A stretch of 64,000 bases of DNA from Thermodesulfobacteriota bacterium. Its GTDB lineage: Bacteria > Desulfobacterota > GWC2-55-46. The translations under genes and the position numbers were made by a program. The stretch's first letter is position 1; each line of letters begins with the position of its first letter. Positions 45,073 through 62,956 of this stretch are shown piece after piece. A model generated the notes under the pieces. It was not told the origin of the DNA. It saw only the letters and a list, made by a program, of their open reading frames with translations, and did no database searches. The DNA is taken from positions 2,637,053 through 2,701,052 of the forward strand of contig CP129479.1 of assembly GCA_030583865.1 (NCBI GenBank), written 5' to 3'.

Positions 45073-45108
45073 CGATCTCGAAGAGCGCCAGGCGCCTCCG
45101 CCCTGTCC

Positions 45109-47313
45109 TCAATACGAGCAATCGCTCATATTAGTGCAGTCATAATTGACTTCGGTCCCGGGTATCGCGATTTCCTCGAAAGAATCGTTACATACCTTCT
45201 CGGTAGACGGGGTTATGGTCCTGAAGGTTATCTGCCCGTCCATGGCCCCGGTGGTCCTCGGGCTCTTGTACGATTCAACGCACGCCCCGTTCATGAGCCT
45301 GTACCCGAGCGGGTCCGAGTCCTCGAGCGTGCCCGCCGGGGCGTTGCTGCCGTGAATGCCCTTTATCTGGTCCACCGTCTCGGTCGGGTCATACCACCCG
45401 CCGTGGCACGAAAGGCACAGTATCCCGAACTTGTTCGAGTTGTTGCCGGTACCGGTCCCCTGCTTGTAGAAGGGGGAATCGGTCCCGAGCCCGTCGGGCG
45501 GGTGCGAGACCCTCGAATAATTCGCATTCGGGCCGATGTAGCCCTCGTCCCCGTAGACGTCCCTCTTGTGGCAGTTATAGCAGAAATTCCTGGTGGTGCC
45601 GAAACCAGTGGTGTTCGCCTTGAGTATCCATTTCTCGTTTGAGCCGTGCACGCCCGAGGGGTCGGAGGAGACGCTCGAGCCGTGGCAGGCGGAGCATGTA
45701 ATTGTGCTGTCGTGCGTTACGTTGTAATAGCCGGTGCGCTCCCAGGTCTCCGGGAGGTCGACATACCTGAACGTGTTCGTAAGCCCGAGGCCGTTGTCCG
45801 GCCAGTTGAGGTTTGCGCGCGGCGAGCCGGGAGGCACGTTCCTGCCCTGGGCGAAGACCGGGTGAAAGCCCATGTTGTTGATGTTGAAGTCCGCCGTGGG
45901 GTCGGACTGCTCGACCTGAGACCCGTCCGCGTTGCCCGAAGGCGCATAAGGCGGCATGCTGCCGTAGGCGTAATACGAATGGCATTTTATGCAGAGATAC
46001 CCTTCCAGGTTATTGCCGCCTGGGTTGGTGGAGGTAAAATCGACCACTTCGTAGGCCGTGACCGGCTCCCCGGCAACGGGCCAGGACGACGGCTTGACTC
46101 CCCAGCTCCCCAATATGTTCGCGCCGATAATGTTCCCGTTCACGCCGCCCATGGCCTGGTTCCCTTCCATGGCGCCGTGCGGGTTGTGGCAATCGGCGCA
46201 CTCCGCATGCCTGTTGTCCCTCAGGTTTTCAGCCGATTCCCTGGCCGGGTCGCCGGCGAACTCCCTCGAAGGGACATGCAGCCCCCATGTGGCCTTGACA
46301 TCGTGCTTGTAGGGGTATTCGAATTGCGCGGTAAGGTCCTTGGAGGCCACGTTCCCGTTGTGGCAGTTGAGGCATAGCCATTCCTCGTTCTCGATATTCG
46401 AGGTGGACGGGTTCGTGCCCTTCAAAAGCGCCTTCCCGGCCGCGCCGCCGTGCGAGCGGTGGCAGGCAAGGCAGCTCTGCATCTCGGGCGTGTCGTCGCT
46501 GTAACCGGTTTCGCCCAGGTCCTCGTGCCAGGGGTTCACCCCCTCGCCGTTCCACGTGGCCGTGGACGTGCCGTGCACCGAAGGGTTTGTCTCCCAGTAT
46601 CTCTTGTCATGGCATATCTGGCAGAGGCCGCCGTTTGAGAGGCTCCCGAGGAGGAACTTGGGGAACTCGGTTCCGTGCGGGTCGTGGCAGCTCGTGCACT
46701 GCATCATCCCCGCGCCGTCGAGCTTGACTCTCTGCTGGGACTCGCTCAGCGGGTCTCTTATCTCCTCGTTCGACGGATATGAGCGGGAGTACTCGAAGGA
46801 TATGGGGTGGTCATCCATCAGGTCCGTGCCTATATGGGACGTCGATATGGAACTCAGCTTCCCTTCCTCTATGCCGGCGCCGGTCACGCTCAGCTCCCCC
46901 CCGAGCCCCTTTCCCGGAAGGTTGAGGAGCGAGCCTATTGCTATGGTGCCGTCATGGCATGCCAGGCAGAGCTTCGATGAGCCGGTCGGCTGCCCGAGCG
47001 TAGGGGAGTTGGGGTCCAGCGTGGCGGCAAGGGTCTGGCTCATGTAGACGTCGTAGGTGGCCCCGGGGTCCTGCTTGTTCCACGCCGGCCCGGAAGGGTT
47101 TGCGTTATGAGGCGTGTGGCAGAAGACGCAGACCTCGGTCGTCTCGCCGGACTTTATCTCCCCCGGGGAAAGCGAGCCGAAGTTGTGCTTCGTGCCTGTG
47201 ACCGACGCAAGCGAATATCCGGCGGCAGCGGCCAGCAGCCCGGTTACCAACGCCGCGGCTATCACGTTACGTCCCTTTTTCCCGGCCTTTCCCTTCATCG
47301 GATTTAACGACAT
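45109..47313 (-). CDS. Large secreted multihaem c-type cytochrome (11 CxxCH)
   Basis: 734 aa with a signal peptide and eleven CxxCH motifs. Several have a distal His (CHTPH, CHDPH, CHNPH), typical of paired-CxxCH multihaem domains. Confidence 0.8.
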   Translation of the reverse strand: MSLNPMKGKAGKKGRNVIAAALVTGLLAAAAGYSLASVTGTKHNFGSLSPGEIKSGETTEVCVFCHTPHNANPSGPAWNKQDPGATYDVYMSQTLAATLDPNSPTLGQPTGSSKLCLACHDGTIAIGSLLNLPGKGLGGELSVTGAGIEEGKLSSISTSHIGTDLMDDHPISFEYSRSYPSNEEIRDPLSESQQRVKLDGAGMMQCTSCHDPHGTEFPKFLLGSLSNGGLCQICHDKRYWETNPSVHGTSTATWNGEGVNPWHEDLGETGYSDDTPEMQSCLACHRSHGGAAGKALLKGTNPSTSNIENEEWLCLNCHNGNVASKDLTAQFEYPYKHDVKATWGLHVPSREFAGDPARESAENLRDNRHAECADCHNPHGAMEGNQAMGGVNGNIIGANILGSWGVKPSSWPVAGEPVTAYEVVDFTSTNPGGNNLEGYLCIKCHSYYAYGSMPPYAPSGNADGSQVEQSDPTADFNINNMGFHPVFAQGRNVPPGSPRANLNWPDNGLGLTNTFRYVDLPETWERTGYYNVTHDSTITCSACHGSSVSSDPSGVHGSNEKWILKANTTGFGTTRNFCYNCHKRDVYGDEGYIGPNANYSRVSHPPDGLGTDSPFYKQGTGTGNNSNKFGILCLSCHGGWYDPTETVDQIKGIHGSNAPAGTLEDSDPLGYRLMNGACVESYKSPRTTGAMDGQITFRTITPSTEKVCNDSFEEIAIPGTEVNYDCTNMSDCSY

Positions 47314-47341
47314 TTCCTTCCTGCGGTCGAGCCCGCTGGGT

Positions 47342-48415
47342 TCAGCCTTCCCCGAGGTAGTCGAAGACCTGCACCCTGCTATTATACGAATCCGAGACGT
47401 AGATCCTGTTGCCGTTGTCTATGAATATGCCGCTCGGAAGCCAGAAGGTCCCGGCTGATTTGCCGAGGGTGCCGAAATTCAGGAGGAACCTTCCTTGCCT
47501 GTTGAATATCTGTATGGTATCAAAGAGGGCGTCGGCCACGTAAATGTTCCCGTCCTTGTCGAGGGCGATGCCCTTGGGCCTGCCGAAATCGCCTGTTCCG
47601 TCTCCCTGCCTGCCGAAGGAGCTCAAAAACTTCCCGTTGCCGTCGAATATCTGGACCCTGAAGTTCAACGAATCAACGACGTACACGTCGCCGCCCCGGT
47701 CCAGGGCCAAATCAACGGGGTAGTTGAACTCCCCTGTTTCTTTCCCTCTCCTTCCGAAGGAGCCGACCTCCGCGCCCTTCAGGTCAAAAATACGGATGCT
47801 ATGAGACGCGGTGTCGGATATGTATACCCTTGATTCAGTCTTGCTTATCGCGATGCCCGTGGGCCTTTCGCCCGCGGCGAACGAGAAGAGGAACTTGCCC
47901 TTGGGATTGAAGACAAAGGCCTTGCGGGCCACTGAATCGGTGACATAGATATTGTTCTGGCCGTCGGTGGCCGCCGCTATCGGGGATTCGAACCGCTCTT
48001 CCCCGGGCTCTTCTATGAGTGTGTAGTTCTTCCTGGCCAGGTCGAAGACATGCACCTTCTTGAAGGCCGTGTCCGCCACTATGAGCCTTCCGGCGGAATC
48101 GACGGTTACGCCGTACGGCTTTATGAGCCGGTCCCTTTTTTCACCGAGTATGAAATCGGCAATACGCCTGAAAAACCCCGTGTTCGCGCCGATGTCCTCG
48201 GGCCTGCTGATAGTCCGTAAATAACTTACCCTTGCCGGTTCGGGAGGAGACGGCCAGATAAGGGGCGTCTGCGGCGTAAGCATGCCGCTTTTCTGCTCCG
48301 GACCGAAAGCGCAGCCCGCGAGCGTAAGCGCGGCGAACGCCAACGCCGCGGCTAGCCTGAGGGCGCCTGATGACCGGGCCCTTTCGGCCCTTCTGTCTTT
48401 CGGGGCTGCATGCAT
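47342..48415 (-). CDS. NHL-repeat beta-propeller lipoprotein
   Basis: LTLAGC lipobox and six repeats of the form ...NIYVTDS / ..YVADT.. / FNxPxGIA..., typical of NHL propellers. Confidence 0.75.
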   Translation of the reverse strand: MHAAPKDRRAERARSSGALRLAAALAFAALTLAGCAFGPEQKSGMLTPQTPLIWPSPPEPARVSYLRTISRPEDIGANTGFFRRIADFILGEKRDRLIKPYGVTVDSAGRLIVADTAFKKVHVFDLARKNYTLIEEPGEERFESPIAAATDGQNNIYVTDSVARKAFVFNPKGKFLFSFAAGERPTGIAISKTESRVYISDTASHSIRIFDLKGAEVGSFGRRGKETGEFNYPVDLALDRGGDVYVVDSLNFRVQIFDGNGKFLSSFGRQGDGTGDFGRPKGIALDKDGNIYVADALFDTIQIFNRQGRFLLNFGTLGKSAGTFWLPSGIFIDNGNRIYVSDSYNSRVQVFDYLGEG

Positions 48416-48427
48416 CAGGAAATGACC

Positions 48428-49024
48428 CTACTTCCTGTGACAGTACTGGCAGATATCAAGCCCGGCGGACCTGAACCGCCGGGTAGTGTCGGCGCCCCAG
48501 TCGGCCCTGCCCGGAAGAAGCCCTCTCTCGTGCGGGTTGTGGCAGGTTGAGCATATTATCTGGCCTGTTTTCGGGTCGAGCGGCAGGATAGTGGGTATGT
48601 CCTTCAAGGTCATCCTGATGTTGTCGTGAATGGTCTTGGGGGGCACCCTCAAATGGTTCGGCGCTTTCTTCAAAACGCTAAGCATGGCCGTCGGCTGGAC
48701 CGTGGGGTGGACAGGGACCGTATGGCAGCTCCTGCAGAGCTGGACCGGGTCCTCGAAATAGAGCTTCACGTCCTTTATGGTCAGGTTCTTGTCGATTGCC
48801 GGGACTTCCTTATGGCATACAACGCACGTGCCCCAGAGCACCTCTCCGGTCTCGCCTATCTGGTTATGCGGGTTGATTACCGTCAAGAGCGCCTCGGCCC
48901 TCGGGTAGGGGGGCGGCTCGGGCGGGGCAGGAACGGCCGGGGCCTCTGCCGACCAGGCTTCGCCGGAGAAAAACAGGGCGCCTGCTAAAAAGATGACCTT
49001 GAGGATGCCGGATTTCCTTGACAT
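48428..49024 (-). CDS. Tetrahaem c-type cytochrome
   Basis: Signal peptide; CVVCH, CRSCH, CSTCH, CQYCH. Confidence 0.75.
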   Translation of the reverse strand: MSRKSGILKVIFLAGALFFSGEAWSAEAPAVPAPPEPPPYPRAEALLTVINPHNQIGETGEVLWGTCVVCHKEVPAIDKNLTIKDVKLYFEDPVQLCRSCHTVPVHPTVQPTAMLSVLKKAPNHLRVPPKTIHDNIRMTLKDIPTILPLDPKTGQIICSTCHNPHERGLLPGRADWGADTTRRFRSAGLDICQYCHRK

Positions 49025-49072
49025 GTTGGGCTACCTTCTTTGGATGCCGGCCCTGAGGCCGTTTCGTTTAGC

Positions 49073-50209
49073 TTACTCTTGCGTAAAGGCGTAAATGGAG
49101 CCGTCCTCGGAGCCTACGTAAACGGCATTGTCCGTGACCGCCGGAGAGGACTGGATGCTCCCCTCGGTCATGTACTTCCAGACCGTCTCGCCGGTATAGA
49201 GGTCCACGGCGTAAAAGCCGCCGTCGTCACAGCCGACGTAAAGGAGCCCGGAAGCCGAGACCGCCGGGGTCGAGTTCACCTCGTCCGGGAACTTGTAGAC
49301 CGCGAGCTCCCTGCCGTCCTTCCTGTTGAAGACGGTCACGTCGCCCTTTTTGGAAGCCATGTATATCCTGTCGGCGGTGACCACAGGAGAGGCGTAGGCG
49401 AGCTTGCCGAGGTTCTTCCGCCATACGTATTTGCCGTCTTTTACATTCAGAGCGTAAAGGGTCCTGTTATACGAGGATACGTAGACTATGCCGTCCCGCA
49501 CTGCCGGGGTGGAGTATATGGCGGATTCGGTCCTCAACTGCCAGTTCCTTCCGCCGCTCTTCGCGGAGGCGGAGTATATCACCCCGTTCTTGCCCGCGTA
49601 ATATATCGCGCCGTCGGCATAGGCCGGGGAGGCGTATATGCCGCTGTATTTTTCGTAATCCGGGACGTTCATCCTCCAAACCCTCTGGCCGTCCTTTGTC
49701 CGGAGGGCGTAGAGGTAGAGGTCCTTGGAGCCGATATAGACATTGTCCTCGGCTACAACAGGCGAAGTGAGGACCGGGCCGCCGGTCTCGTGCTTCCAGA
49801 CGAGCTTGCCGGTCTCGGCCTCGAGAGCGTAGACGGAGCCGTCCCTGGAGCCGAAATAGACCCTGCCCTTGTCGACCGCCGGGGACGAGAATATCTCGCC
49901 GTTGGTCTCGAACTTCCAGACAACGGCCCCGGTCTTCTCGTCAAGGGCGTAAAGGTGCTTGTCATACGAGCCCACGAAGACCTTGCCCTTGTAGACCGCC
50001 GGAGATGAATAGACCCTCCCGCCGGTCTTGAACTTCCACTTGAGCGCCAGGGGCGGCCTCGGCGCCCTCTCGACAAAGGGGACGTTATCGGGGCTCTTCA
50101 TGAACTTCGGCCAGTCCGCGGCGGCCTGTCCGAAAAAAAGCGGCAGCGCCGCCAATGAGAGGGCCAGCGCTGCTGTTATCTTCCCTGCTGTTGACCTCGA
50201 TTGCTGCAT
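49073..50209 (-). CDS. PQQ-like (BamB-type) eight-bladed beta-propeller protein, secreted
   Basis: Signal peptide and repeated ...G.VYALD..TG..VWK... PQQ-repeat pattern (eight or more times). Confidence 0.75.
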   Translation of the reverse strand: MQQSRSTAGKITAALALSLAALPLFFGQAAADWPKFMKSPDNVPFVERAPRPPLALKWKFKTGGRVYSSPAVYKGKVFVGSYDKHLYALDEKTGAVVWKFETNGEIFSSPAVDKGRVYFGSRDGSVYALEAETGKLVWKHETGGPVLTSPVVAEDNVYIGSKDLYLYALRTKDGQRVWRMNVPDYEKYSGIYASPAYADGAIYYAGKNGVIYSASAKSGGRNWQLRTESAIYSTPAVRDGIVYVSSYNRTLYALNVKDGKYVWRKNLGKLAYASPVVTADRIYMASKKGDVTVFNRKDGRELAVYKFPDEVNSTPAVSASGLLYVGCDDGGFYAVDLYTGETVWKYMTEGSIQSSPAVTDNAVYVGSEDGSIYAFTQE

Positions 50210-50217
50210 AGTTCCTC

Positions 50218-50805
50218 TCAGACCTTCATCTTTGAGATTTTGTGGGATATGCTCTTCCGCTCCCGGGTTATCCCCTCGAGGGCCGCGGCAAGCTCCTTTG
50301 CGTCCCGGGCGGAGGCCTCAAGCCCCCTCGAAGCCTTCTCAAGGGCTTGACCGGATTTTTTCAGGGGACCGAAAAAGGACGCGAGCGAGATGGTCATCGC
50401 ATTGAACGCGTCCGCCAGGGCGCCCGGCATTTCGCTCGAGACCCGCCGCGTAAGGTCGCCACTGGAGACCCCCTTCACGGCCTCCCTGAGCTCGATGAGC
50501 GGGAGCTCTATCCGGCGGAGGACAAAGTAGCCGACTACCGCGGAGACGGACAGGACCGCTGAAACGGTTACGGCTCCGAGTTTCAGCAAGACAGGGACCG
50601 CGATTTCAGAGGTGGTCCGTATCTTTATATGGATTTTATATAACCCCTGTCCAAGTTCCCTGTCAATTAAAAAATAGGCGGCGAGGAGGTTCAGAAGGAG
50701 CCCCAGGAGGACCGTTCCGGCAAAGGCAGCCGCGAACCTCGACTGCAGCTTCCGGTCTATGAAATAGTTCCTGCGCCTCCAACTGGCATCGCGCGCGTCC
50801 CGCAT
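50218..50805 (-). CDS. HAMP-domain membrane protein without output domain
   Basis: Two TM helices, then a HAMP motif (LPLIELREAVKGVSSGDLTRRVSSEMPGALADAFNAMTISL), then ~60 aa of coiled coil. A paralogue lies at 51707-52333. Confidence 0.6.
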   Translation of the reverse strand: MRDARDASWRRRNYFIDRKLQSRFAAAFAGTVLLGLLLNLLAAYFLIDRELGQGLYKIHIKIRTTSEIAVPVLLKLGAVTVSAVLSVSAVVGYFVLRRIELPLIELREAVKGVSSGDLTRRVSSEMPGALADAFNAMTISLASFFGPLKKSGQALEKASRGLEASARDAKELAAALEGITRERKSISHKISKMKV

Positions 50806-50907
50806 CGCTCCTCCGGGCCCGGGCTCGATTCCGGGCTATATGATAGTACCCTGGAATTAAAACCCCATTAATCCAGGGTTAATTCGTCCATGCTCTCCTA
50901 AAGAGGT

Positions 50908-51720
50908 TCATTTATTGTGGCACGCAAGGCAGAGCCTGCTGTATTCGTTGCTCATGACGAGCTCGTTATGGAGCTTCGAGAACGGGTTATGGCAGCTCCC
51001 GCACCCGACGTTGCCGGCAAAGAGCTTTATCTCGGGCGGGAGCTTGTCCACCGGCTTATACGCGCCCCGGTACTTGCGCCTGGCGTCTATGTAGGATACG
51101 CCAATGGGGTGGCTGAGGCCGGAAAGCCCCGACCTGTGGAATAGCGGCCCCGCGATTTCCCTTCCTCCGACGACCGCGTCCGGCCCTGTCAGGGCGTCGT
51201 GGCAAGCCATGCACCTGAGTGATAGCTCGTCGAGCACGCCCCCGACCTCGGTTGCGACGAACTTCAACGAGGCGGAGCCCGTGACGTGGGCCGAGCCGAG
51301 CGAGAGCTTATGGAGCTCGCTCTCAAGGTCGCCGTGGCAAAGCATGCAGAAGCCGGGGCCCTCGGCCCTGGAGCGGAGGCGGAACGGCCCGAAGCCCTCC
51401 ATGTGCACCGGGTGGCAAGTAATGCAGGTCACGTCCCCCTTCCAATCGAGCGGCAGGTTCGCGGGCACCTGCATCGAGGGCCTCACGTCCACCGGATGCG
51501 ACAGCTCGAACTCGGCCTCGTGGCAGTCCACGCACATCCTCGATATGTCCAGCAGGAAGGCGCGGGGAGTGTCCCCGGGGGACGGCTCGGCAATATGGCA
51601 TTCTAGGCACCGGCCCTTGAAGTCGTGATAGCTCGTCCACTGCCGGGAGTAGAGGAGAGCCGCGGCGCCCACCGCGGCTATTGCCATTGATATGGCCAGC
51701 GCCCTCTTAATCGCCTTCAT
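50908..51720 (-). CDS. Heptahaem c-type cytochrome
   Basis: Signal peptide; CLECH, CVDCH, CITCH, CMLCH, CMACH, CGSCH, CLACH. Confidence 0.8.
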   Translation of the reverse strand: MKAIKRALAISMAIAAVGAAALLYSRQWTSYHDFKGRCLECHIAEPSPGDTPRAFLLDISRMCVDCHEAEFELSHPVDVRPSMQVPANLPLDWKGDVTCITCHPVHMEGFGPFRLRSRAEGPGFCMLCHGDLESELHKLSLGSAHVTGSASLKFVATEVGGVLDELSLRCMACHDALTGPDAVVGGREIAGPLFHRSGLSGLSHPIGVSYIDARRKYRGAYKPVDKLPPEIKLFAGNVGCGSCHNPFSKLHNELVMSNEYSRLCLACHNK

Positions 51721-52333
51721 GGGCCTTTACGCTCGAGAGGGCCAGCTGGAGCCTCTTTACGTTCTCGAATAGTTCGCGGACCGCGGACCCGGCCTCGGGC
51801 GGGAGCGGCCCTCCCTTTTCGAGGATTTTCAGAAGCTCCTGCTCGGATTTCTCAAGGGCTTCGATTGCTTCGGCTGCGGCCCTTGCCGTGTGGTTTACCG
51901 ACCGGACCATCGAGTTCAAGTCTTCCGCGAGCGCGACGAGCTGGTCGTTACCCCGAAGCCGCGTAACAACAGTAAGGTCGCCCGAGCCTATCTCTTCCAT
52001 ATTCCGGGCGAGCCTGAAGACCGGCCCCGCTATCCTGTGGGAATAGAGTATTGAGACCGCGGCAACGGCCGCGGTCGCGACCCCGAGGAGCGCTACAGTG
52101 TAAGAGGAGGCGAAGACAAGCGGCAGGGCCTTTACCTTGAGCTCGTAAAGCGTGAAGACGGCCTGGCCGTATGAGTCTCCCACGCCCCTCGAAAGGGAGA
52201 GTACTAGGAGGGCAAGGAGCCCGGCGGCCCCGGCAAGCGTCGCAAGGCACAGCTTGAGCCCGAACCTGAGCTTGAAGCCCAGCCCGAGGAGGCGCGAGGC
52301 GTCCGTTTTTTTACGGGTATCCGGAGCGGCCAT
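51707..52333 (-). CDS. HAMP-domain membrane protein without output domain (paralogue)
   Basis: Same TM-TM-HAMP-coiled-coil architecture (GPVFRLARNMEEIGSGDLTVVTRLRGNDQLVALAEDLNSMV); overlaps the downstream heptahaem cytochrome gene by 14 nt. Confidence 0.6.
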   Translation of the reverse strand: MAAPDTRKKTDASRLLGLGFKLRFGLKLCLATLAGAAGLLALLVLSLSRGVGDSYGQAVFTLYELKVKALPLVFASSYTVALLGVATAAVAAVSILYSHRIAGPVFRLARNMEEIGSGDLTVVTRLRGNDQLVALAEDLNSMVRSVNHTARAAAEAIEALEKSEQELLKILEKGGPLPPEAGSAVRELFENVKRLQLALSSVKAHEGD

Positions 52334-56129: not shown

Positions 56130-56449
56130 CCATCCTTTCCGGTCCGTTTCAACCGGAATAAGCCCCTGCAAGCCGGTAAACCAAAAAACTTTGCGGCAGG
56201 CCATTCAATAGCCCATCACCTCCGGTCCTGATCCAATACCTTCTCTACAAATCAAATCCAGTCTGCTGAAAAGCTCAAGGTGCAGGATGTCGAATAATGA
56301 GGCATGCTTTCCTGCCTGATTTTGAAGGCGGCGCGTTCAATGGATTTTTCAGCAGCTGGTTAAAGAAAACCCTGCTTTCTTCCGATAAGTAATCGGGGCG
56401 GGGGATGCGTTTGGTTTCCCTCCCCGTTTATTTTTGGAAGGAAGGCTTG

Positions 56450-58612
56450 ATGAAAAAGATTTTCCGGGTCATCTGGTCCGATTGCAGGCCCACCCTCTCC
56501 ATAGGGACAAAGACGCTCCTCGCGTTCCTACTCATCATATCGGCGCTCACCGGCGGCTTCTATTTCTTCATCTCCGTTAAATTCTCATCCCAGGCCCACC
56601 AGGAGGCCGTTAACGAGATAGACTCGAAGCTCCGCGGGGCGTGGAGCCTTTTCCAGTCGCGACCCGAGCAGATGAAGTTCGGCATGCTCCAGGCCGCGAG
56701 CGAGCGGGCGGTGAAAGCGGCGGTAAAGGCGCGCGATTCCGAATTCCTCGGCAGTAACCTCGAAGGCTACTCCGAGATGAGGCCTTATGTCGACCTCTGG
56801 GCCGTCGTTGACGGCAACGGGCGTGTCATCGCAAGGAGGGACAGGAGGGCCGGGGGCGTCCTGGAAATAAACGGCGCGATACGGAAGGCGCTGGAAAGCG
56901 GCGGGCCGGTCATCTCCACCGAGCTCGTCCCGAGAGAGCTGCTTGAAAGGGAGGGCCTTAAGATCCCCGAGACGGACGAGGATGGGCTTATGCAGCTCGT
57001 TACGGTGCCGGTCATGGAAAACGGCGGGGTCACGGGGGCTTTCGTCACCGGCACGCTCCTTAACGGCAACAGCTGGCTGCCTGATACCGTATACAGGTAC
57101 TTCAGCGTGAACGCCTCCGTCTTCACGATAACGGAAAAGGGGGCCAAGGTCGTTTCGGCATCCGGGGTCCAAGCCGGTGTCTTCAGCCCGCTCACCCGCC
57201 TGGACCTGGACAACGGCATCGGGGGCCGGCTGCCCGGGAGCGAGGGGTTCATCGGGAAGACCGAGCTCGACGGAAAGGGCGTCTTCCTTGGGATAGAGCC
57301 GATATTCGGGCTCGACGGCCGGCCCATTGGCGCGCTGGCCGTGGCCGAGCCGAGCTCGAAGGTCGAGGCGAACATCGCCCGCATGAAATCGCAGATACTG
57401 GGGGTGGCCGCGGCCGGTGTCCTCTTCTCACTCCTCCTCGCGGCGCTCACTTACAGGGACACATTGAAGCCCGTCAGGGCCATAAGGAGCGCTATGGACG
57501 AGACGGCCTCGGGCAACCTCGACGTGGCCCTTGACATCAGGACCAAGGACGAGTTCGAGAACATCGGGCAGGGCTTCAACCTGATGGTCGCGTCCATAAA
57601 GACCAGGGAAGACCGGCTTGAAAGCTTCAACCAGCTTTCAAAGGTGCTACTCCAGTACAACGACCCGGGGATGCTCCTGGAGAGGGCCCTTTCCAAGATA
57701 GCCGAGCTTACCGGCTCCGAGGTCGGTGTCATATACATATACGACGACGAGACAGGGATATTGAAACCAGAGGTGCTCTGCGGGATAAACAAATCAGGCC
57801 TCTCCGGCACGGAAAAAGGAGAGGGGCTCGCGGACAGGTGCTTCTCGGAGCAGAGGACGCTCGCGCTCCTTGACCTCAGGAACGCAAGCGGCCCGGTAAT
57901 CGACGCAGGCATACTCAAGTTCAATCCCGCGGGACTCGTCTGGCTCTGCCTCACCTATAACGAAAAGCCCATGGGAGTGCTCCTCCTCGGGTCGATATCG
58001 CCGTATGAGAAAGAGATGCTCAAGCACATGGAGCACCTCGTAAACCAGATAGCCATAGCCCTCGATAACGCGATGGTCCACAAGGAAATCGAAAAACTCT
58101 CCATGACCGACCCGCTCACGGGAGTTTTCAACAGGAGGCGCTTCGGCGAGCTCCTGAAGGAGCACTTCAAGGCCGCCTCGCGGTATAAATACGAGACAGG
58201 GCTTCTGATGATGGACGTGGACAACTTCAAATATATAAACGACACTTTCGGCCACCAGCAGGGCGATATTATCCTCTCGGAAATAGGCAGGCTCCTCAGG
58301 GAAAGCACCAGGTCAACGGACGTGCTGGCAAGGTACGGCGGGGAGGAATTCGTGTGCCTCGTGGCCCATACCGGCAAGGATGGGCTGCTGGCGCTCGCCG
58401 AAAAGCTCAGGAAGACGGTCGAGACGCACCGTTTCCCGGGCTTGAGGGACTGGCAGGTCACCGTGAGCGTGGGCGCAGGGCTATTCCCCTCCGAGGGGGT
58501 AAGGTGCGAGGAAGACCTCGTCAAGGCGGCGGACGAGAACCTTTATTTCGCGAAGAGGAACGGCAAGAACCAGGTCGCCTTTGAAAAGCGCCCTGAAGCC
58601 AGGCTAGTATGA
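56450..58612 (+). CDS. Sensor diguanylate cyclase (periplasmic sensor - HAMP - GAF - GGDEF)
   Basis: TM-periplasmic-TM N-terminus, HAMP, GAF-like region and a GGDEF domain with RYGGEEF. The start is set at ATG 56450 after a GGAAGGAAGG RBS. Confidence 0.85.
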   Translation: MKKIFRVIWSDCRPTLSIGTKTLLAFLLIISALTGGFYFFISVKFSSQAHQEAVNEIDSKLRGAWSLFQSRPEQMKFGMLQAASERAVKAAVKARDSEFLGSNLEGYSEMRPYVDLWAVVDGNGRVIARRDRRAGGVLEINGAIRKALESGGPVISTELVPRELLEREGLKIPETDEDGLMQLVTVPVMENGGVTGAFVTGTLLNGNSWLPDTVYRYFSVNASVFTITEKGAKVVSASGVQAGVFSPLTRLDLDNGIGGRLPGSEGFIGKTELDGKGVFLGIEPIFGLDGRPIGALAVAEPSSKVEANIARMKSQILGVAAAGVLFSLLLAALTYRDTLKPVRAIRSAMDETASGNLDVALDIRTKDEFENIGQGFNLMVASIKTREDRLESFNQLSKVLLQYNDPGMLLERALSKIAELTGSEVGVIYIYDDETGILKPEVLCGINKSGLSGTEKGEGLADRCFSEQRTLALLDLRNASGPVIDAGILKFNPAGLVWLCLTYNEKPMGVLLLGSISPYEKEMLKHMEHLVNQIAIALDNAMVHKEIEKLSMTDPLTGVFNRRRFGELLKEHFKAASRYKYETGLLMMDVDNFKYINDTFGHQQGDIILSEIGRLLRESTRSTDVLARYGGEEFVCLVAHTGKDGLLALAEKLRKTVETHRFPGLRDWQVTVSVGAGLFPSEGVRCEEDLVKAADENLYFAKRNGKNQVAFEKRPEARLV

Positions 58613-58770: not shown

Positions 58771-59490
58771 ATGGCTACCGGCTTGAAGGAAAGGTCCTTT
58801 TTCTCCGCCATATGCGTCGAGCGCTGCGGCGGCGTATGCTGCGACCCCTGGTGGGGCATCATCTCGTATCCGGTCGTAAGGGATGGCGGCCTTAAAAACG
58901 CTTCCGCCTTCAGGGCAGAGGTGCTTAAGGGCATAAAGGCGCGGGTCGAGAGGATAACGGCCGCCTATAAAACAGGCGGGGAGGAGCCCCGGAAACTATT
59001 CGGGCAGCCCGAAAGGTATAATGTAGTAGTAAAGGATATTCGGCGGTCCGGGCAGGCGCTCACGATAAACCTCATTGCCATGTTCGCCTTCAGGTGCTCT
59101 CTTTTGGCGGAGGACAAGTCCTGCTCCATGCACCCGTCCATCATCGGGCGCGAGATAAGGCCCCCGCATTGCGGCGAGCTCGGCTCTCCTGAGGCAGGGC
59201 CCGGGGAAAAGGGCTTTTGCAGGATAATACACGAGGCGGGCGCGGCTAAAGGCGATGAAACTGCGATCCATGCGGCCATAGAAAGGGAAAAGGGCATCTC
59301 GGGGAGGAGTTTCAACGAAGGCGCGGCCACCGCCGAGGAAGCGGCGGAACGTGTGGCCGGGGCCGTCCGGTCGTGGTGCGAGGCAAACGCGCCGGACCTT
59401 CTGCCCGATGAAAGGCCCGCAGAACCCGGACGGAACGACCCCTGCTGGTGCGGGAGCGGCGCGAAGTTCAAGAAGTGCCACGGCAGGTAA
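58771..59490 (+). CDS. Cysteine-cluster (YkgJ/UPF0153-like CxxxCGxxCC) protein with C-terminal SEC-C motif
   Basis: N-terminal CVERCGGVCCDPWWG; C-terminal DPCWCGSGAKFKKCHG (SEC-C metal-binding motif). Confidence 0.5.
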   Translation: MATGLKERSFFSAICVERCGGVCCDPWWGIISYPVVRDGGLKNASAFRAEVLKGIKARVERITAAYKTGGEEPRKLFGQPERYNVVVKDIRRSGQALTINLIAMFAFRCSLLAEDKSCSMHPSIIGREIRPPHCGELGSPEAGPGEKGFCRIIHEAGAAKGDETAIHAAIEREKGISGRSFNEGAATAEEAAERVAGAVRSWCEANAPDLLPDERPAEPGRNDPCWCGSGAKFKKCHGR

Positions 59491-59519: not shown

Positions 59520-60272
59520 TCACCTTGTGATGAGCGCGACCGGCCCCCTCGGCCCTGCCGGGAACCCTTCCCTTATAAGAGCCACATCCTGGCCGCAGAC
59601 CCTGTAATCGAAAAACTTCTCTCCTGATGGGCCTTGTGCCTCGTATTTTACGGTCACGCGGCTGCATGCCCCGGCTTTTTCCACGCTATTGTACTTTGCC
59701 TCATATCTCGCGCCGTTTACGGCCCTCACAAAATCCATCCGCAACGACGAGGCCTGGAGGGCAACTTCTTCAAGGAGCCTTGTATTTTCCCGGGCCTCTG
59801 TTTTTTCCGCCTTGACGGACCTGGCCTCAAGCCTTGCTATTTTTTCCGGTTCTTCTGCCTTGATATAGTCCAGCCACTCAAGGCCGCGGCCCCGGCTCAG
59901 ATGAAACTTTTCCGGCTCGCCGGGGCTGTACCGGTAGTCCTTTTCGACAATGAACCTCGAATCCCCCTCGCAAGCTAAATACCAGGGGTACTTGCCCTCT
60001 CCTCCCGACGCGATATGCTCCGCTGCATCGTCAGGAGTGACCTCCACGAGGCGCACGAACCCGCCGAACCTTTTAGAGACGACCGCCAGGGGCCGTCCGC
60101 CTTCCTCGTTGCAGAACGCGCGCATCTTATTATAGACGTCGATACCAGCGAGGTTTCCGTCAATAGGTCCCCCGGACAGGTTCGGAAGCTCGCCTTTACC
60201 TGCCGCGCTAGCGCCCCCTGATGCAAGCAGTGCCGCCAGAAGCGCTGCCAGGATTATCCTGTATATCAGCAT
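59520..60272 (-). CDS. Hypothetical secreted protein, candidate sigma-54-dependent target
   Basis: Signal peptide (IILAALLAALLASGGASA) and an AGGAGG RBS 6 nt before the ATG; it lies downstream of the sigma-54 promoter and enhancer palindromes. Confidence 0.45.
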   Translation of the reverse strand: MLIYRIILAALLAALLASGGASAAGKGELPNLSGGPIDGNLAGIDVYNKMRAFCNEEGGRPLAVVSKRFGGFVRLVEVTPDDAAEHIASGGEGKYPWYLACEGDSRFIVEKDYRYSPGEPEKFHLSRGRGLEWLDYIKAEEPEKIARLEARSVKAEKTEARENTRLLEEVALQASSLRMDFVRAVNGARYEAKYNSVEKAGACSRVTVKYEAQGPSGEKFFDYRVCGQDVALIREGFPAGPRGPVALITR

Positions 60273-60338
60273 AATGACCTCCTCTTTCTTGAAAAGACGG
60301 AACCGGAAATCGCCCTTTTCTTCTACCCGGAGGTAATA

Positions 60339-60353
60339 GCAAAAGGAGTGCCA
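60339..60353 (-). promoter_or_regulatory. Sigma-54 (-24/-12) promoter
   Basis: The minus strand reads TGGCAC-TCCTT-TTGCT, a match to the TGGCAC-N5-TTGCW consensus, about 65 nt upstream of the ATG at 60272. Confidence 0.6.
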
Positions 60354-60416
60354 GCTGAATTCAAGGGAATTTCCTGAAATTCGGGGGGTCTGATACGAAG
60401 CGAGGGGCGGCCCCTA

Positions 60417-60450
60417 TGGAATCAATTCCATAGGGATGGAACGAATTCCA
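60417..60450. promoter_or_regulatory. Tandem palindromic enhancer (UAS)-like sites
   Basis: TGGAATCAATTCCA and TGGAACGAATTCCA, each a TGGAA-N4-TTCCA palindrome, with centres 20 bp apart. They sit just 3' of the NtrC-type gene and ~75 bp upstream of the sigma-54 promoter. A third palindrome GAATTTCCTGAAATTC lies at 60366-60383. Confidence 0.5.
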
Positions 60451-60452
60451 TA

Positions 60453-61805
60453 TTATTCGAGGCCATAGGCCCTGATTTTGGTAAGTAGCGTCTTGTAGTC
60501 TATCTTGAGGATGGAGGCTGTCCTGGCCTTGTTGCCGGAAGATAGCTTGAGCGCCTCCCTTATCGCGGCCCTTTCCGCCTCCCGCGCCGCGTGGGACGAG
60601 ACCTCCTTCAAGGGCATGACAGCCCCGGCCGTGCGGCCGTATCTTTCCTCGGCCCCGAGGTCGAGGTGCGTTGGGAGGACCTCGGCCCCGCCCGCCAGGA
60701 GGGCGGCGCGGCGCATCACGTTCTTAAGCTCCCTTATATTGCCCGACCAGGAATGTTTGAGGAGCGTCTCCATTGCCGGGCCGGAGATGGAGAGCGGCGG
60801 CCTTTTAAGCTCCCCGCACGCGTCCGCAAGGAACCTGCCGGCCAAAAACGAAGTGTCGTCCGCCCGCTCGCGTAGCGGCGGGAGCGTTACCGTAAACTCG
60901 TTCAGCCTGAAGTAGAGGTCTTCCCGGAAGCCGCCTTCCTTTACAAGGGCCCTCAGGTCCTTGTTCGAGGCCGCGAGTATCCGCACATCGACCGGGACGG
61001 GCTTGCTTGAGCCCACGCGGCAGACCTGTCTTGCTTCTACGGCTCCGAGGAGCTTCGCCTGGAGCGCGGCAGAGGTGTTCTCGAGCTCGTCTATGAAGAG
61101 CGTGCCGCCAGAGGCGGCCTCGAAGTATCCGCCCCGGGCCCTGTCCGCGCCGGTGAAGGCGCCCTTCTCGGAACCGAAGAGCTCGCTTTCTATGAGGGGC
61201 TCGGGGATGGCGCCCATATCGACCCTGACGAACGGCCCTTCTTTCCTGCGGCTCATGCGGTGGATGAGGCCCGCGATCATGGATTTCCCCGTGCCTGTCT
61301 CGCCCTGTATTATTATCGAAAAGTCGCTTGCCGCTACCCTTACGAGCTGGCCGATTACGCGCCTTATGGCCTCGCCCCTGCCGAGCGCCGATTCGAGAGA
61401 GGCGTCGACCGCGGACTTAAGCCTTGCCACATCGCGCTCAAGCTCGAGCTTCTCGACCGCCTTCCGGATGAGAAGCGTAAGGGATTCCATGTCCGCGGGC
61501 TTGGTCACGAAATCATGGGCCCCGTTCTTTATGGCCTCCACCGCCGATTGTATGTCGGCGTATGCGGTAAGGAAAATGACCGGGACAGCAGGGTCGATCT
61601 CCTTCAGGGCCCTTAGCGTCTCGAAGCCGTCCATGCCGGGCATCCTGTGGTCGAGTAGCACGGCGTGCGGCCTGAACCTGCTGAATTCCTTTACGCCGGA
61701 TGGGCCGTCCGGGGCCTGGGAAGTGGAGAACCCCCTCATGGAGAGGAGCTCCGAGAGGACGAGCCTTATGTTCTCCTCGTCGTCTATTACGAGCACCTTG
61801 TGCAA
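60453..61805 (-). CDS. Sigma-54-dependent response regulator (NtrC family: REC - AAA+ - HTH)
   Basis: Receiver domain (VLVIDDE...LLDHRMPGMDG), GETGTGKS Walker A, GAFTGA sigma-54 contact motif and a C-terminal Fis-type HTH. Confidence 0.9.
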   Translation of the reverse strand: MHKVLVIDDEENIRLVLSELLSMRGFSTSQAPDGPSGVKEFSRFRPHAVLLDHRMPGMDGFETLRALKEIDPAVPVIFLTAYADIQSAVEAIKNGAHDFVTKPADMESLTLLIRKAVEKLELERDVARLKSAVDASLESALGRGEAIRRVIGQLVRVAASDFSIIIQGETGTGKSMIAGLIHRMSRRKEGPFVRVDMGAIPEPLIESELFGSEKGAFTGADRARGGYFEAASGGTLFIDELENTSAALQAKLLGAVEARQVCRVGSSKPVPVDVRILAASNKDLRALVKEGGFREDLYFRLNEFTVTLPPLRERADDTSFLAGRFLADACGELKRPPLSISGPAMETLLKHSWSGNIRELKNVMRRAALLAGGAEVLPTHLDLGAEERYGRTAGAVMPLKEVSSHAAREAERAAIREALKLSSGNKARTASILKIDYKTLLTKIRAYGLE

Positions 61806-61929
61806 TAGAGCGCCTTTCAGCCTGCGAAATAGCGGCCCTGTGCCATATCGGAGACGGACTTGACGAGGGTGCCTGATGGGATTAGATCAAAGGTGAGAGG
61901 GGCCGTACAGGATGAGCATACTAAAGTTC

Positions 61930-62568
61930 TTACTGCAAATCAAGGCCGCGCCGGGGAGGGGTTGACAGCCTGCGGGCGAGCTCGTCAAGGAGGAGATTGA
62001 GCCTCTCACGTTCGCCTTCAGCCCCCTTTGAGGACTCCCTGAAAACTCCCAGTATGAGGGCCTTGCCGCCCATGACGAAGGTAAAGGTGCTTACCTCGGC
62101 AGTGATTGATCTGCCGCTTGAATGGAGCAAAACCACGTTGTGGGTCTGCCCTGCCGCGCCCTCGACGGCCTTCCGGAAAGTGGAGCTGTAGTGTTCAGAT
62201 TCCTCCGGCGGGTGGAGCCTGGTCTGGTGCATGCCGGCTATCTCGTCCACGGGCCTTCCGATGAGCGAGCCTGCGGCCCTGTTTGCGTGAATTATGATCC
62301 CGCTCCCGGCATCGGCGACGAATACGGCTTCACTTATGAGATCCAGCAGCTTGCGGTAGGCATATTGATATTCGCCGAGGGCCTTCTCGGAATTTTCGCG
62401 CGCGGCCATTTCCGCAAGGAGCATCTCATTGGCCTTTATGAGCTCGGTTGTGCGCGAGCAGAGGAGCGCTTCGAGTTCGAGCCTCTCTCTCTCGGCCCTG
62501 AAAAGCTCTTTCAGCTCCGCCCTGAGCTTCCGGATCTCCTTTATAAGGCCATTTTCACCTGTGCCCAT
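61930..62568 (-). CDS. PAS-domain protein with N-terminal coiled coil (no kinase domain)
   Basis: Coiled-coil N-terminus followed by a PAS-like core (ISEAVFVADAGSGIIIHANRAAGSLIGRPVDEIAGM); no HisKA or HATPase domain. Confidence 0.55.
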   Translation of the reverse strand: MGTGENGLIKEIRKLRAELKELFRAERERLELEALLCSRTTELIKANEMLLAEMAARENSEKALGEYQYAYRKLLDLISEAVFVADAGSGIIIHANRAAGSLIGRPVDEIAGMHQTRLHPPEESEHYSSTFRKAVEGAAGQTHNVVLLHSSGRSITAEVSTFTFVMGGKALILGVFRESSKGAEGERERLNLLLDELARRLSTPPRRGLDLQ

Positions 62569-62665: not shown

Positions 62666-62956
62666 CTAACCCGGCCTGACAAGGGCGATTGCCAGCGCCG
62701 CGAGGGCCAGGGCCGACAAGCCGTAAACAGCGGCGGTGAGCCTCTTTATGGTCTTCCTCGTGGATTCGAGCTCTCTTTCGGCTGATTTAAGCCTGAGTTC
62801 AAGGGTGATGAGGTATTCACGGAGCCTCTCGTCCTCAATATCCCTGTACTCCCTTTTCAGGGAGCCGAGCACCGTGCGGGACGCGTCTATGACGGTCCTC
62901 GATGAAAGGATGAGGCCTGCGGCCCTGGCTATGAGGGCCCAAAACTTTAAAGACAT
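62666..62956 (-). CDS. Small hypothetical protein with C-terminal TM helix
   Basis: 96 aa with a coiled-coil middle and a hydrophobic C-terminus (LSALALAALAIALV). Weakly supported. Confidence 0.3.
   Translation of the reverse strand: MSLKFWALIARAAGLILSSRTVIDASRTVLGSLKREYRDIEDERLREYLITLELRLKSAERELESTRKTIKRLTAAVYGLSALALAALAIALVRPG

What the first reader, a model, noticed from the sequence alone, without database searches (positions are those of the whole stretch)
59520..62568. Self-contained sigma-54 regulatory module: PAS protein, NtrC-type activator, tandem palindromic enhancer sites, -24/-12 promoter and a secreted target gene
Directly 3' of the activator gene (stop at 60453) lie two 14-bp palindromes, TGGAATCAATTCCA and TGGAACGAATTCCA, spaced exactly 20 bp centre to centre. 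A third palindrome GAATTTCCTGAAATTC sits at 60366-60383. These are followed on the minus strand by TGGCAC-TCCTT-TTGCT (60353-60339), a near-consensus sigma-54 promoter, and then by an AGGAGG RBS and the ATG of a 250-aa secreted protein of unknown function. Upstream of the activator is a PAS-only protein but no histidine kinase. This points to an atypical input route for the response regulator, or to the cognate kinase being encoded elsewhere.
Basis: seen in the sequence. Interest (0 to 1): 0.55.

Follow-up and report, generated by a model that had tools for sequence, protein, structure and literature searches.

The report
Sigma-54 activator cassette driving secreted protein
This is an ordinary but cleanly built bacterial gene switch: a sigma-54 activator protein, its two DNA docking sites, a sigma-54 promoter, and a secreted protein of unknown function that the switch turns on.

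Summary
Two 18-bp palindromes (TATGGAAT-NN-ATTCCATA type, centres 20 bp apart) start right after the stop codon of an NtrC-type response regulator. The nearer one is centred 71.5 bp upstream of the -24 GG of the only exact TGGCAC-N5-TTGC match in the 64-kb window. An AGGAGG ribosome-binding site and a 250-aa gene with a signal peptide follow.

In six orthologous loci the distal site, the left half of the proximal site, -24/-12, the RBS and the ATG are invariant while the spacers drift. The same tandem sites plus a sigma-54 promoter follow regulators only 38-57% identical, all sharing the helix-turn-helix signature IDYKTLLTKI. Their downstream genes differ: receiver/kinase genes, CheY/CheB-like genes, gas-vesicle genes.

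The target belongs to an unannotated secreted family with four invariant cysteines, no Pfam or NCBIfam match and no confident PDB fold match. Ten of 12 family loci examined carry a sigma-54 promoter, some with a different activator and enhancer motif.

"Self-contained" is not supported. The receiver looks phosphorylatable and no kinase is in the window. One ortholog lacks the PAS gene; another has a kinase-less triple-PAS protein there. The third palindrome is not conserved.

Verdict: a new member of a known kind, of modest interest.

The parts
61930..62568 (-). PAS-only protein, 212 aa: an N-terminal coiled-coil-like stretch, one PAS domain and a short tail, with no HisKA or HATPase domain.
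   Evidence: Pfam finds PAS families only. Homologs of 205-214 aa occupy the same position, 94/96-aa gene then PAS then regulator. The gene is absent in L111. In L116 a 438-aa triple-PAS-only protein takes its place.
61915..61943 (-). Conserved promoter-like block, TTGATT-N17-TATGCT, upstream of the activator gene. It overlaps the PAS stop codon. Reading it as a sigma-70-type promoter is inference.
   Evidence: The block is kept in the window, L001 and L111, and L111 has no PAS gene. It matches 8 of 12 consensus positions, below the scan threshold.
60453..61805 (-). NtrC-type sigma-54 activator and response regulator, 450 aa, with REC, AAA+ (GAFTGA, GETGTGKS) and HTH_8 domains. The C-terminal signature is GNKARTASILKIDYKTLLTKIRAYG.
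   Evidence: Pfam. The closest solved structures are 'Transcriptional regulator (NtrC family)' entries (4l4u, 1ny5, 3dzd), which I recall as Aquifex NtrC1/NtrC4. It scores below the NCBIfam cut-offs for AtoC, NtrC, PrsR and ZraR. GAFTGA was found by regex.
60435..60452 (-). Enhancer site A (distal). It reads TATGGAATTCGTTCCATC on the gene strand and abuts the activator stop codon. Its centre is 91.5 bp upstream of the -24 GG.
   Evidence: TATGGAA....GTTCC is invariant in six orthologous loci.
60415..60432 (-). Enhancer site B (proximal), TATGGAATTGATTCCATA, a perfect palindrome that extends to 60412-60435. Its centre is 71.5 bp upstream of the -24 GG and 20 bp from site A.
   Evidence: The identical 18-mer occurs twice behind the 50%-identical regulator of a Syntrophorhabdus MAG.
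60365..60382 (-). Only part of it, AATTCC (60367-60372, + strand GGAATT), is conserved, together with an AATTC further downstream at 60358-60362, outside this part. Its role is unknown; it could be a weak extra half-site or a bend.
   Evidence: AATTCC is kept in five of the six orthologous loci and the palindrome is lost in L001, L006 and L111. An AAATTCCC block also appears in L092 and L100. There is no IHF-consensus match.
60338..60353 (-). Sigma-54 promoter, TGGCAC-TCCTT-TTGCT. The -24 GG is at 60351-60352 and the -12 GC at 60340-60341. The inferred transcription start is near 60328.
   Evidence: It is the only exact match in the window (expected 0.02). TGGCA..C...TTGCTAT is invariant in six orthologous loci.
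60278..60283 (-). Ribosome-binding site AGGAGG, 5 nt before the ATG.
   Evidence: Invariant in the alignments. The leader has no significant predicted structure.
59520..60272 (-). Target gene encoding a 250-aa secreted protein from an unannotated family. It has an N-terminal Sec-type signal, four invariant Cys (C54, C101, C203, C226) and two alpha+beta modules joined by a long helix.
   Evidence: There is no Pfam or NCBIfam hit. The word-indexed search returned 4 clusters and the exhaustive HMMER search 70 representatives. The AlphaFold model has pLDDT 85.7, with no confident PDB fold match.
58771..59490 (+). Convergent 239-aa protein, Cys-rich with a C-terminal SEC-C motif. It is a conserved neighbour of the target gene and may not be functionally linked.
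   Evidence: Pfam SEC-C. It is adjacent to the target in L002-L005, L111 and L116, in L115 only as a 29-aa SEC-C fragment, and was not called in L001.

Best explanation
The region is a sigma-54 regulatory cassette belonging to a two-component response regulator.

Proposed mechanism:
1. The 450-aa NtrC-type regulator is made from its own promoter.
2. Dimers sit on the two 18-bp palindromes (TATGGAAT-NN-ATTCCATA type) that begin right after its stop codon. The sites are 20 bp apart, roughly two helical turns, so probably on much the same face of the DNA.
3. A histidine kinase encoded elsewhere phosphorylates Asp52.
4. The AAA+ domains then assemble into a ring.
5. The ring loops over about 70-90 bp to RNA polymerase-sigma-54, which is bound at TGGCAC-N5-TTGCT.
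6. Acting through its GAFTGA loops, the ring uses ATP to open the promoter.
7. Transcription starts near 60328. It yields a short-leader mRNA for a Sec-exported, probably disulfide-bonded periplasmic or secreted protein of an uncharacterised family.

Shown here:
- all sequence elements;
- their conservation across orthologs;
- the co-occurrence of this site type with one HTH signature;
- the sigma-54 promoter association of the target family.

Inferred, not shown:
- DNA binding by this regulator;
- phosphorylation and the identity of the kinase;
- the transcription start;
- export and function of the target.

The upstream PAS-only protein is at most an accessory input.
For: Elements and statistics:
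- The promoter is the only exact match in 64 kb (expected 0.02).
- The site pattern occurs only at this locus (expected 0.39).
- The regulator has REC, Sigma54_activat, AAA_lid and HTH_8 domains, GAFTGA, and the receiver residues D8/D9/D52/T80/K102 (read from the sequence).

Phylogenetic footprint:
- In six orthologous loci (target 44-82% identical), site A, the TATGGA half of site B, TGGCA..C...TTGCTAT, AGGAGG and ATG are invariant.
- The spacers between them diverge.

Same architecture in distant relatives:
- A Syntrophorhabdus MAG, with a regulator 50% identical, has two perfect TATGGAATTGATTCCATA sites 20 bp apart, then TGGCACGGTTATTGCT.
- A metagenome scan for the tandem motif returned 19 loci.
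  - In at least nine, the sites directly follow a regulator 38-57% identical.
  - Eight of the 19 also show a sigma-54 promoter downstream of the sites; in four of these the gap from site end to TGG is 53 nt and in the other four 65-133 nt. In the window it is 62 nt.

Link between the HTH and the sites:
- All regulators with sites downstream share GNK..A..L.(I/V)DYK(T/S)L(L/F)TK(I/V).
- None of about 25 other activators with different HTH sequences has such sites.

Target family:
- A sigma-54-type promoter lies within 61-109 nt of the start codon in 10 of 12 family loci.
- The background rate is 0.004 per 200 nt.
Against: - There is no experimental evidence of any kind, and no transcription data.
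- rpoN is not in the window, so the presence of sigma-54 in this organism is assumed from the activator.
- No cognate kinase was found in the window.
- L008 has the same HTH signature but no sites within about 1.1 kb downstream.
- In the gas-vesicle loci L091 and L102 the sites follow a REC-only gene and no activator is present in the fetched DNA. The link between adjacent gene and site is therefore not universal.
- Site B is degenerate in L111 and L116.
- No IHF site or obvious bend was found to help looping over this short distance.
Confidence: 0.8

Rival explanations
1. The PAS-only protein is the real, kinase-independent signal input. It would bind the regulator directly, as an anti-activator or co-activator in the manner of NifL-NifA or PspA-PspF, or it would heterodimerise with a PAS kinase encoded elsewhere. 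On this reading the module would be self-contained.
For: - The PAS-then-regulator order is kept in every PAS homolog found, down to 63% identity.
- A more distant relative, L116, has a 438-aa protein made only of three PAS domains at the same position. Its second PAS plus linker aligns to the window protein (28% identity, E 4e-18).
- The PAS proteins are a consistent 205-214 aa, so they are not decayed kinases.
- No kinase is in the window.
Against: - L111, whose regulator is 74% identical and which has the same target and SEC-C neighbours, has no PAS gene.
- The regulator keeps its own conserved promoter-like block whether or not a PAS gene precedes it.
- The receiver domain has every phospho-acceptor residue, which argues for conventional kinase input.
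- Other members of the regulator subfamily have unrelated upstream genes.
- Conserved gene order within one clade is weak evidence of interaction.
Confidence: 0.2
2. The palindromes are not enhancer sites for the adjacent regulator. They would instead be a transcript-end hairpin or terminator for the regulator gene, a repetitive element, or the operator of an unrelated transcription factor.
For: - They lie immediately 3' of a stop codon, where terminators are usual.
- Site B extends to a perfect 11-2-11 inverted repeat.
- In L091, L102 and L099 the same tandem sites are not next to an activator gene.
Against: - The arms are A+T-rich, the loop would be only 2 nt and no T-run follows. The terminator scan found nothing there.
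- The flanking CCC/GGG extension is not conserved.
- Conservation follows the pattern of a protein site: fixed TGGAA/TTCCA half-sites with a variable centre and a fixed 20-bp register.
- The sites co-occur with one HTH signature and with a sigma-54 promoter at constrained distances.
- There is no other copy in the window, so it is not a dispersed repeat.
Confidence: 0.07
3. The -24/-12 match is inactive, or only a minor internal promoter. The target would be expressed mainly by read-through from the regulator's own promoter, as a regulator-target operon.
For: - The genes share a strand and are only 180 bp apart.
- No intrinsic terminator was detected between them.
Against: - The promoter is an exact consensus match, invariant across six orthologs while neighbouring bases drift.
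- Unrelated loci encoding the same protein family also carry sigma-54 promoters, with other activators.
Confidence: 0.08

Closest known systems
NtrC-family sigma-54 response regulators with tandem upstream sites (NtrC at glnAp2, DctD, ZraR, AtoC; closest solved structures the 'NtrC family' entries 4l4u, 1ny5, 3dzd)
   Same: - The domain order is REC, AAA+ with GAFTGA, then Fis-type HTH.
- It aligns over its full length to 4l4u, 1ny5 and 3dzd (E 7e-91 to 1.5e-75). I recall these as Aquifex NtrC1/NtrC4.
- It has two dyad-symmetric sites about two helical turns apart, roughly 100 bp upstream of a -24/-12 promoter. That this is the textbook arrangement is from my own knowledge.
   Different: - It does not reach the NCBIfam cut-off of any named equivalog: AtoC 421 of 714 bits, NtrC 375 of 559, PrsR 360 of 503, ZraR 314 of 760.
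- From memory, the recognition sequence TATGGAAT-NN-ATTCCATA differs from the NtrC, NifA, ZraR and GlrR sites. Two literature searches found no description of it.
- The sites sit directly behind the regulator's own stop codon, and the regulator-sites-promoter unit recurs in front of unrelated genes.
NifL-NifA and PspA-PspF type control of an enhancer-binding protein by a partner protein
   Same: A PAS-containing protein without kinase activity is encoded directly upstream of a sigma-54 activator.
   Different: - From my own knowledge, NifL carries H and GHKL domains and NifA has a GAF domain rather than a receiver.
- Here the partner is PAS-only and the activator has a complete receiver domain.
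- No interaction was tested, and one ortholog lacks the PAS gene.
ZraP and Spy/CpxP-type sigma-54 or envelope-stress-induced periplasmic proteins
   Same: - It is a small exported protein whose gene lies directly under a sigma-54 promoter next to its activator.
- LTXXQ or Metal_resist genes lie next to distant homologs of the target.
   Different: - There is no sequence or fold similarity; Pfam and NCBIfam find nothing.
- The model is alpha+beta with four invariant cysteines, not the all-helical LTXXQ type.
- The parallel is one of gene context only.
Type II secretion pseudopilins and type IV pilins (GspK, GspI, PilV, FimA)
   Different: - Only about a third of the protein aligns, at 4-13% identity.
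- Foldseek finds nothing at E <= 1e-3.
- Hot-dog thioesterases and p32/Mam33 proteins score similarly.
- The N-terminus is a Sec-type signal, not a prepilin leader (my reading of the sequence).

Membership tests
Bacterial enhancer-binding protein, response-regulator class (NtrC type) | An N-terminal receiver domain with acidic pocket, phospho-acceptor Asp, and conserved Thr and Lys. | tested here: met
   Response_reg scores 1.9e-28. D8, D9, D52, T80 and K102 were read from the translation.
Bacterial enhancer-binding protein, response-regulator class (NtrC type) | An AAA+ sigma-54 interaction domain with Walker A and a GAFTGA loop. | tested here: met
   Sigma54_activat scores 1.4e-60. GETGTGKS is in the sequence and GAFTGA was found by regex at window 61163.
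Bacterial enhancer-binding protein, response-regulator class (NtrC type) | A C-terminal Fis-type helix-turn-helix. | tested here: met
   HTH_8 scores 1.6e-06 over residues 408-447.
Bacterial enhancer-binding protein, response-regulator class (NtrC type) | Phosphorylation-dependent ATPase activity and open-complex formation. | not testable with these tools
   This needs biochemistry.
Named equivalogs AtoC, NtrC, PrsR (PEP-CTERM), ZraR, GlrR | A whole-protein score above the curated NCBIfam cut-off. | tested here: not met
   The scores are 421/714, 375/559, 360/503, 314/760 and 286/763 bits.
Sigma-54 (-24/-12) promoter | GG and GC elements in TGGCAC-N5-TTGC with exact spacing. | tested here: met
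   There is an exact match at 60339-60353 on the minus strand, against 0.02 expected.
Sigma-54 (-24/-12) promoter | Conservation of the element in orthologous upstream regions. | tested here: met
   It is invariant in six loci. It is also present upstream of distant homologs of the target.
Sigma-54 (-24/-12) promoter | A transcription start about 12 nt downstream of the GC, and dependence on RpoN. | not testable with these tools
   No expression data are available. No rpoN signature occurs in the window and the rest of the genome was not available.
Enhancer (UAS) of a sigma-54 activator | Dyad-symmetric sites about 70-150 bp upstream of -24, conserved, and co-varying with the activator's DNA-binding domain. 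| tested here: met
   The site centres lie 71.5 and 91.5 bp from the GG. The sites are conserved. They are found only behind regulators with the IDYKTLLTKI-type HTH.
Enhancer (UAS) of a sigma-54 activator | Direct binding by the activator. | not testable with these tools
   This needs EMSA, footprinting or ChIP.
Histidine kinase (as the identity of the PAS protein) | HisKA/DHp and HATPase_c domains. | tested here: not met
   Only PAS families hit. phmmer with a hybrid kinase matched only the PAS part. No H-box regex match was found in the window.
NifL-like anti-activator (as the identity of the PAS protein) | PAS plus H and GHKL domains, with a partner activator that lacks a receiver. | tested here: not met
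   The protein is PAS-only and the partner has a full receiver. Interaction was not testable.
Any described protein family (for the target) | A significant Pfam or NCBIfam match, or a confident match to a solved fold. | tested here: not met

The most novel reading that the evidence does not exclude
Two linked possibilities are not excluded.

1. The kinase-less PAS proteins feed a signal into a receiver-containing sigma-54 activator without a dedicated histidine kinase. These proteins have one PAS domain here and three in L116, and they recur directly upstream of this regulator.
2. The target defines a new family of exported, disulfide-bonded proteins.
   - The family would be dedicated to sigma-54 control, because different activators and enhancer motifs all drive it from -24/-12 promoters.
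   - It may be tied to c-di-GMP signalling or envelope stress. PilZ, HD-GYP, GGDEF and LTXXQ genes are recurrent neighbours.
Probability: 0.15. Interest if true: 0.55.

Novelty: new member of a known kind. Interest (0 to 1): 0.3.

Why it matters
- **A predicted recognition motif.** The work gives a clean, testable DNA motif (TATGGAAT-NN-ATTCCATA, in tandem at 20 bp) for an uncharacterised subfamily of sigma-54 response regulators. The subfamily occurs in uncultured Thermodesulfobacteriota, Syntrophorhabdus and other anaerobes.
- **A portable unit.** The regulator, its sites and the promoter appear to travel together in front of different cargo genes, including gas-vesicle clusters. This helps regulon prediction in metagenome-assembled genomes.
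- **A flagged protein family.** About 70 sequence clusters of unannotated secreted proteins are shown to lie consistently under sigma-54 control. That is a first functional handle on them.
- **No new mechanism.** None of this changes how sigma-54 regulation is understood.

Tried and rejected
- **First structure model.** Folding the target with only 4 sequences gave pLDDT 46.6. It was discarded and redone with 43 sequences.
- **AlphaFold database fold search.** The afdb50 library was not available.
- **Leader structure.** An anti-Shine-Dalgarno hairpin in the 5' leader was tested and dropped (z-score 0.53, weak covariation).
- **IHF site.** No IHF consensus lies between the enhancer and the promoter.
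- **Terminator reading.** Nothing was found at the palindromes by the scan.
- **Kinase, rpoN or a second activator in the window.** None was found. The kinase search used one query and one motif, so a divergent kinase could have been missed.
- **Genome-collection scan with the regulator.** Only L007 proved informative.
- **Literature searches for the motif.** They gave nothing relevant. The Desulfovibrio sigma-54 regulome paper (PMC4641369) does not contain it, and the open search returned only eukaryotic enhancer papers.


Full report
**1. What is in the sequence**

All genes of the finding lie on the minus strand:
- a 212-aa PAS protein (61930-62568);
- a 450-aa regulator (60453-61805);
- a 180-bp intergenic region;
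- a 250-aa ORF (59520-60272).

Pfam gives the regulator Response_reg, Sigma54_activat, AAA_lid_14 and HTH_8 domains. It gives the 212-aa protein PAS families only, and the 250-aa protein nothing.

The two palindromes are real.
- As 18-mers on the gene strand they read TATGGAATTCGTTCCATC (60452-60435, touching the stop codon) and TATGGAATTGATTCCATA (60432-60415).
- They are 20 bp apart. The second extends to a perfect 11-2-11 repeat.
- The motif occurs nowhere else in the window (expected 0.39).

TGGCACTCCTTTTGC (60353-60339) is the only exact TGGCAC-N5-TTGC match in 64 kb (expected 0.02). With one mismatch allowed there are 4 matches against 2.5 expected, which is not remarkable on its own. 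AGGAGG lies 5 nt before the ATG.

**2. Conservation in orthologs**

The word-indexed search found only four clusters for the target (100, 80, 77 and 67% identity). The 100% hit is a hypothetical protein of a Thermodesulfobacteriota MAG on a 2.75-Mb contig.

Their contigs show the same gene order: PALP enzyme, 96-aa protein, PAS, regulator, target, then a convergent SEC-C protein and a convergent GGDEF protein.

I aligned six intergenic regions, including L111, whose regulator is 74% identical and target 44% identical.
- Invariant elements:
  - TATGGAA....GTTCC of site A;
  - TATGGA of site B;
  - TGGCA..C...TTGCTAT;
  - AGGAGG and ATG.
- The spacers between them change.
- The third palindrome is kept only in the closest relatives. 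What persists is AATTCC plus a downstream AATTC.

**3. A regulator subfamily with its own enhancer motif**

The genome-collection scan with the regulator returned mostly distant activators. One hit stood out: L007, a Syntrophorhabdus MAG with a regulator 50% identical. It has two perfect TATGGAATTGATTCCATA sites 20 bp apart behind the regulator's stop codon, followed by TGGCACGGTTATTGCT.

A metagenome scan for the tandem pattern (22 specified bases) returned 19 loci.
- In at least nine, the sites directly follow a regulator 38-57% identical to the window's.
- Eight of the 19 also show a sigma-54 promoter downstream of the sites.
- Proximal-site centres lie 62.5 bp (five loci), 71.5-74.5 bp (five loci), or 115-143 bp (three loci) from the -24 GG. 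The first two classes differ by one helical turn.

The link to the DNA-binding domain is clear.
- Regulators followed by sites all carry GNK..A..L.(I/V)DYK(T/S)L(L/F)TK(I/V) in the HTH.
- About 25 other activators in the fetched loci, with different HTH sequences, have no such sites.
- L008 is an exception: it has the signature but no sites.

The positions fixed by my search pattern are invariant by construction in the metagenome loci. The flanking T and A of the 18-mer, and the loci found through proteins, are independent support.

The genes behind the promoter differ by locus:
- a receiver protein with a Cys-rich tail plus a PAS-kinase-receiver hybrid (L007; Pfam) or a similar receiver plus a 903-aa PAS-containing ORF not scanned with Pfam (L097);
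- CheY-like and CheB-like genes (L092, L100);
- gas-vesicle clusters beginning at or near gvpA (L091, L099, L101).

The regulator, its sites and the promoter therefore behave as a unit placed in front of varying cargo.

The regulator scores below the cut-off of every named NCBIfam equivalog. Its closest solved structures are 'Transcriptional regulator (NtrC family)' entries (4l4u, 1ny5, 3dzd), which I recall as Aquifex NtrC1/NtrC4.

**4. The target protein**

An exhaustive HMMER search with the 4-sequence profile found 70 representative clusters, 52 of them at E <= 1e-10. Most are 335-360 aa, with an extra N-terminal region of about 110 residues. None has a Pfam domain.

Across 43 members, C54, G70, W97, C101, F107, C203 and C226 are invariant. 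Four invariant cysteines in an exported protein suggest two disulfides, which is inference.

With this alignment AlphaFold gave pLDDT 85.7. The model has a signal helix and two helix-plus-sheet modules joined by a long helix spanning residues 142-177.
- Foldseek against the PDB found nothing at E <= 1e-3.
- I treat this as a generic alpha+beta resemblance, not membership.

Gene context of distant homologs is informative.
- L106, L108 and L110 carry TGGCACGGCTTATGC, TGGCACGGTATATGC and TGGCACGCATCCTGC, 61-78 nt before the start codon.
- Their upstream repeats are AACCGCACAC-type rather than the TGGAA palindromes. In L108 a 543-aa receiver-less activator lies upstream.
- L116 and L111 use the TGGAA-type regulator.
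- Overall, 10 of 12 family loci have a match within 200 nt of the start, against a background of 0.004 per 200 nt.
- L113 has a near-match with a -12 mismatch.
- L117, in a plasmid-like context, has none.
- Recurrent neighbours:
  - PilZ genes (L106, L108, L110);
  - an HD-GYP response regulator (L112/L113);
  - LTXXQ/Metal_resist genes (L106, L108);
  - in the window clade, a dCache-HAMP-GAF-GGDEF cyclase.

**5. Input to the regulator**

The receiver keeps all phospho-acceptor residues, so conventional kinase input is expected. No kinase, second activator or rpoN signature was found in the window. These searches were simple and could miss divergent genes.

Evidence linking the PAS protein to the regulator:
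- All PAS homologs (205-214 aa, down to 63% identity) sit in the same slot.
- L116 has a 438-aa protein of three PAS domains and nothing else in that slot. Its middle PAS aligns to the window protein.

Evidence against an essential role:
- L111 lacks any PAS gene.
- A conserved TTGATT-N17-TATGCT block upstream of the regulator is kept with or without the PAS gene.

The PAS link is therefore possible but not established.

**6. Rejected alternatives**

- There is no terminator at the palindromes.
- The leader has no significant structure.
- There is no IHF consensus in the spacer.
- Literature searches did not turn up this motif.

**7. Verdict**

The sigma-54 reading is well supported by comparative data, although no experiment exists.

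This is a textbook type of switch. The new content is threefold:
- a predicted recognition motif for an uncharacterised regulator subfamily;
- the cassette-like reuse of that unit in front of different genes;
- an unannotated secreted family that is consistently sigma-54-dependent.

I rate it a new member of a known kind, with interest about 0.3.

Noticed in passing
L091:2334-2800, L099:9942-10444, L101 (reverse strand) around 737-2387: Gas-vesicle clusters in metagenome contigs, with gvpA first or early, are preceded by the same tandem TATGGAA-N4-TTCCATA sites and a sigma-54 promoter. In L091 and L102 the sites follow a REC-only gene that is itself preceded by a roughly 490-aa ORF resembling a PAS sensor (not scanned with Pfam). 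This suggests sigma-54 control of gas vesicles in these uncultured bacteria.
   Followed up: partly
L106:5740-5870, L108:3140-3290, L110:620-770, L113:200-330: A repeated AACCGCACAC-type motif (AACCGCCCACC in L113) lies upstream of the sigma-54 promoters of distant target-family genes. It is presumably the enhancer of a different, receiver-less 543-aa activator seen in L108.
   Followed up: partly
window 58771-59490 (+): A 239-aa protein with a Cys-rich N-terminal half (CVERCGGVCCDPWWG...) and a C-terminal SEC-C motif lies convergent to the target gene. This adjacency is kept in most relatives, including those whose target is only 35-44% identical (L111, L116), even where the other flanking genes differ.
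   Followed up: no
window 56405-58612 (+): A dCache-HAMP-GAF-GGDEF diguanylate cyclase lies two genes from the target. Distant target homologs sit next to PilZ or HD-GYP genes, so a c-di-GMP connection recurs around this protein family.
   Followed up: partly
L007:5815-6504 and L097:3248-3907: Receiver-domain proteins end in a conserved Cys/His-rich tail (LLPICSHCKKIRDDSGYWNELEKYISDHSDAEFSHAICPTCL). They are encoded just before a PAS-kinase-receiver hybrid in L007, or a 903-aa PAS-containing ORF in L097, and lie downstream of the cassette's sigma-54 promoter.
   Followed up: no
window 60365-60374 and the equivalent positions in L092 and L100: An AAATTCC(C) block about 15-25 nt upstream of the -24 element is shared by the window clade and by loci whose regulators are only about 53-55% identical. 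It contains an ATTCC half-site. Its function is unknown.
   Followed up: partly
window 62666-62956 (-): A 96-aa protein with hydrophobic ends and no family match is conserved directly upstream of the PAS/regulator genes in all relatives, including L111 and L114 (94 aa).
   Followed up: no
window 44650-52333 (-): A run of about nine consecutive same-strand ORFs, most with signal-peptide-like N-termini. At least one has a CxxCH haem-binding motif (CLECH in the ORF at 50908-51720). This may be a periplasmic or multihaem cytochrome cluster.
   Followed up: no
L001:1-639 and L115:1-607: A phage-type integrase gene lies about 5 kb upstream of the module in two relatives. The equivalent position falls beyond the end of the window.
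   Followed up: no
L117:725-6356: The most distant target-family member examined (543 aa) sits in a plasmid- or conjugative-element-like context, next to a ParM/ALP-like gene and a TraG/VirD4-type coupling protein. It has no sigma-54 promoter match.
   Followed up: no
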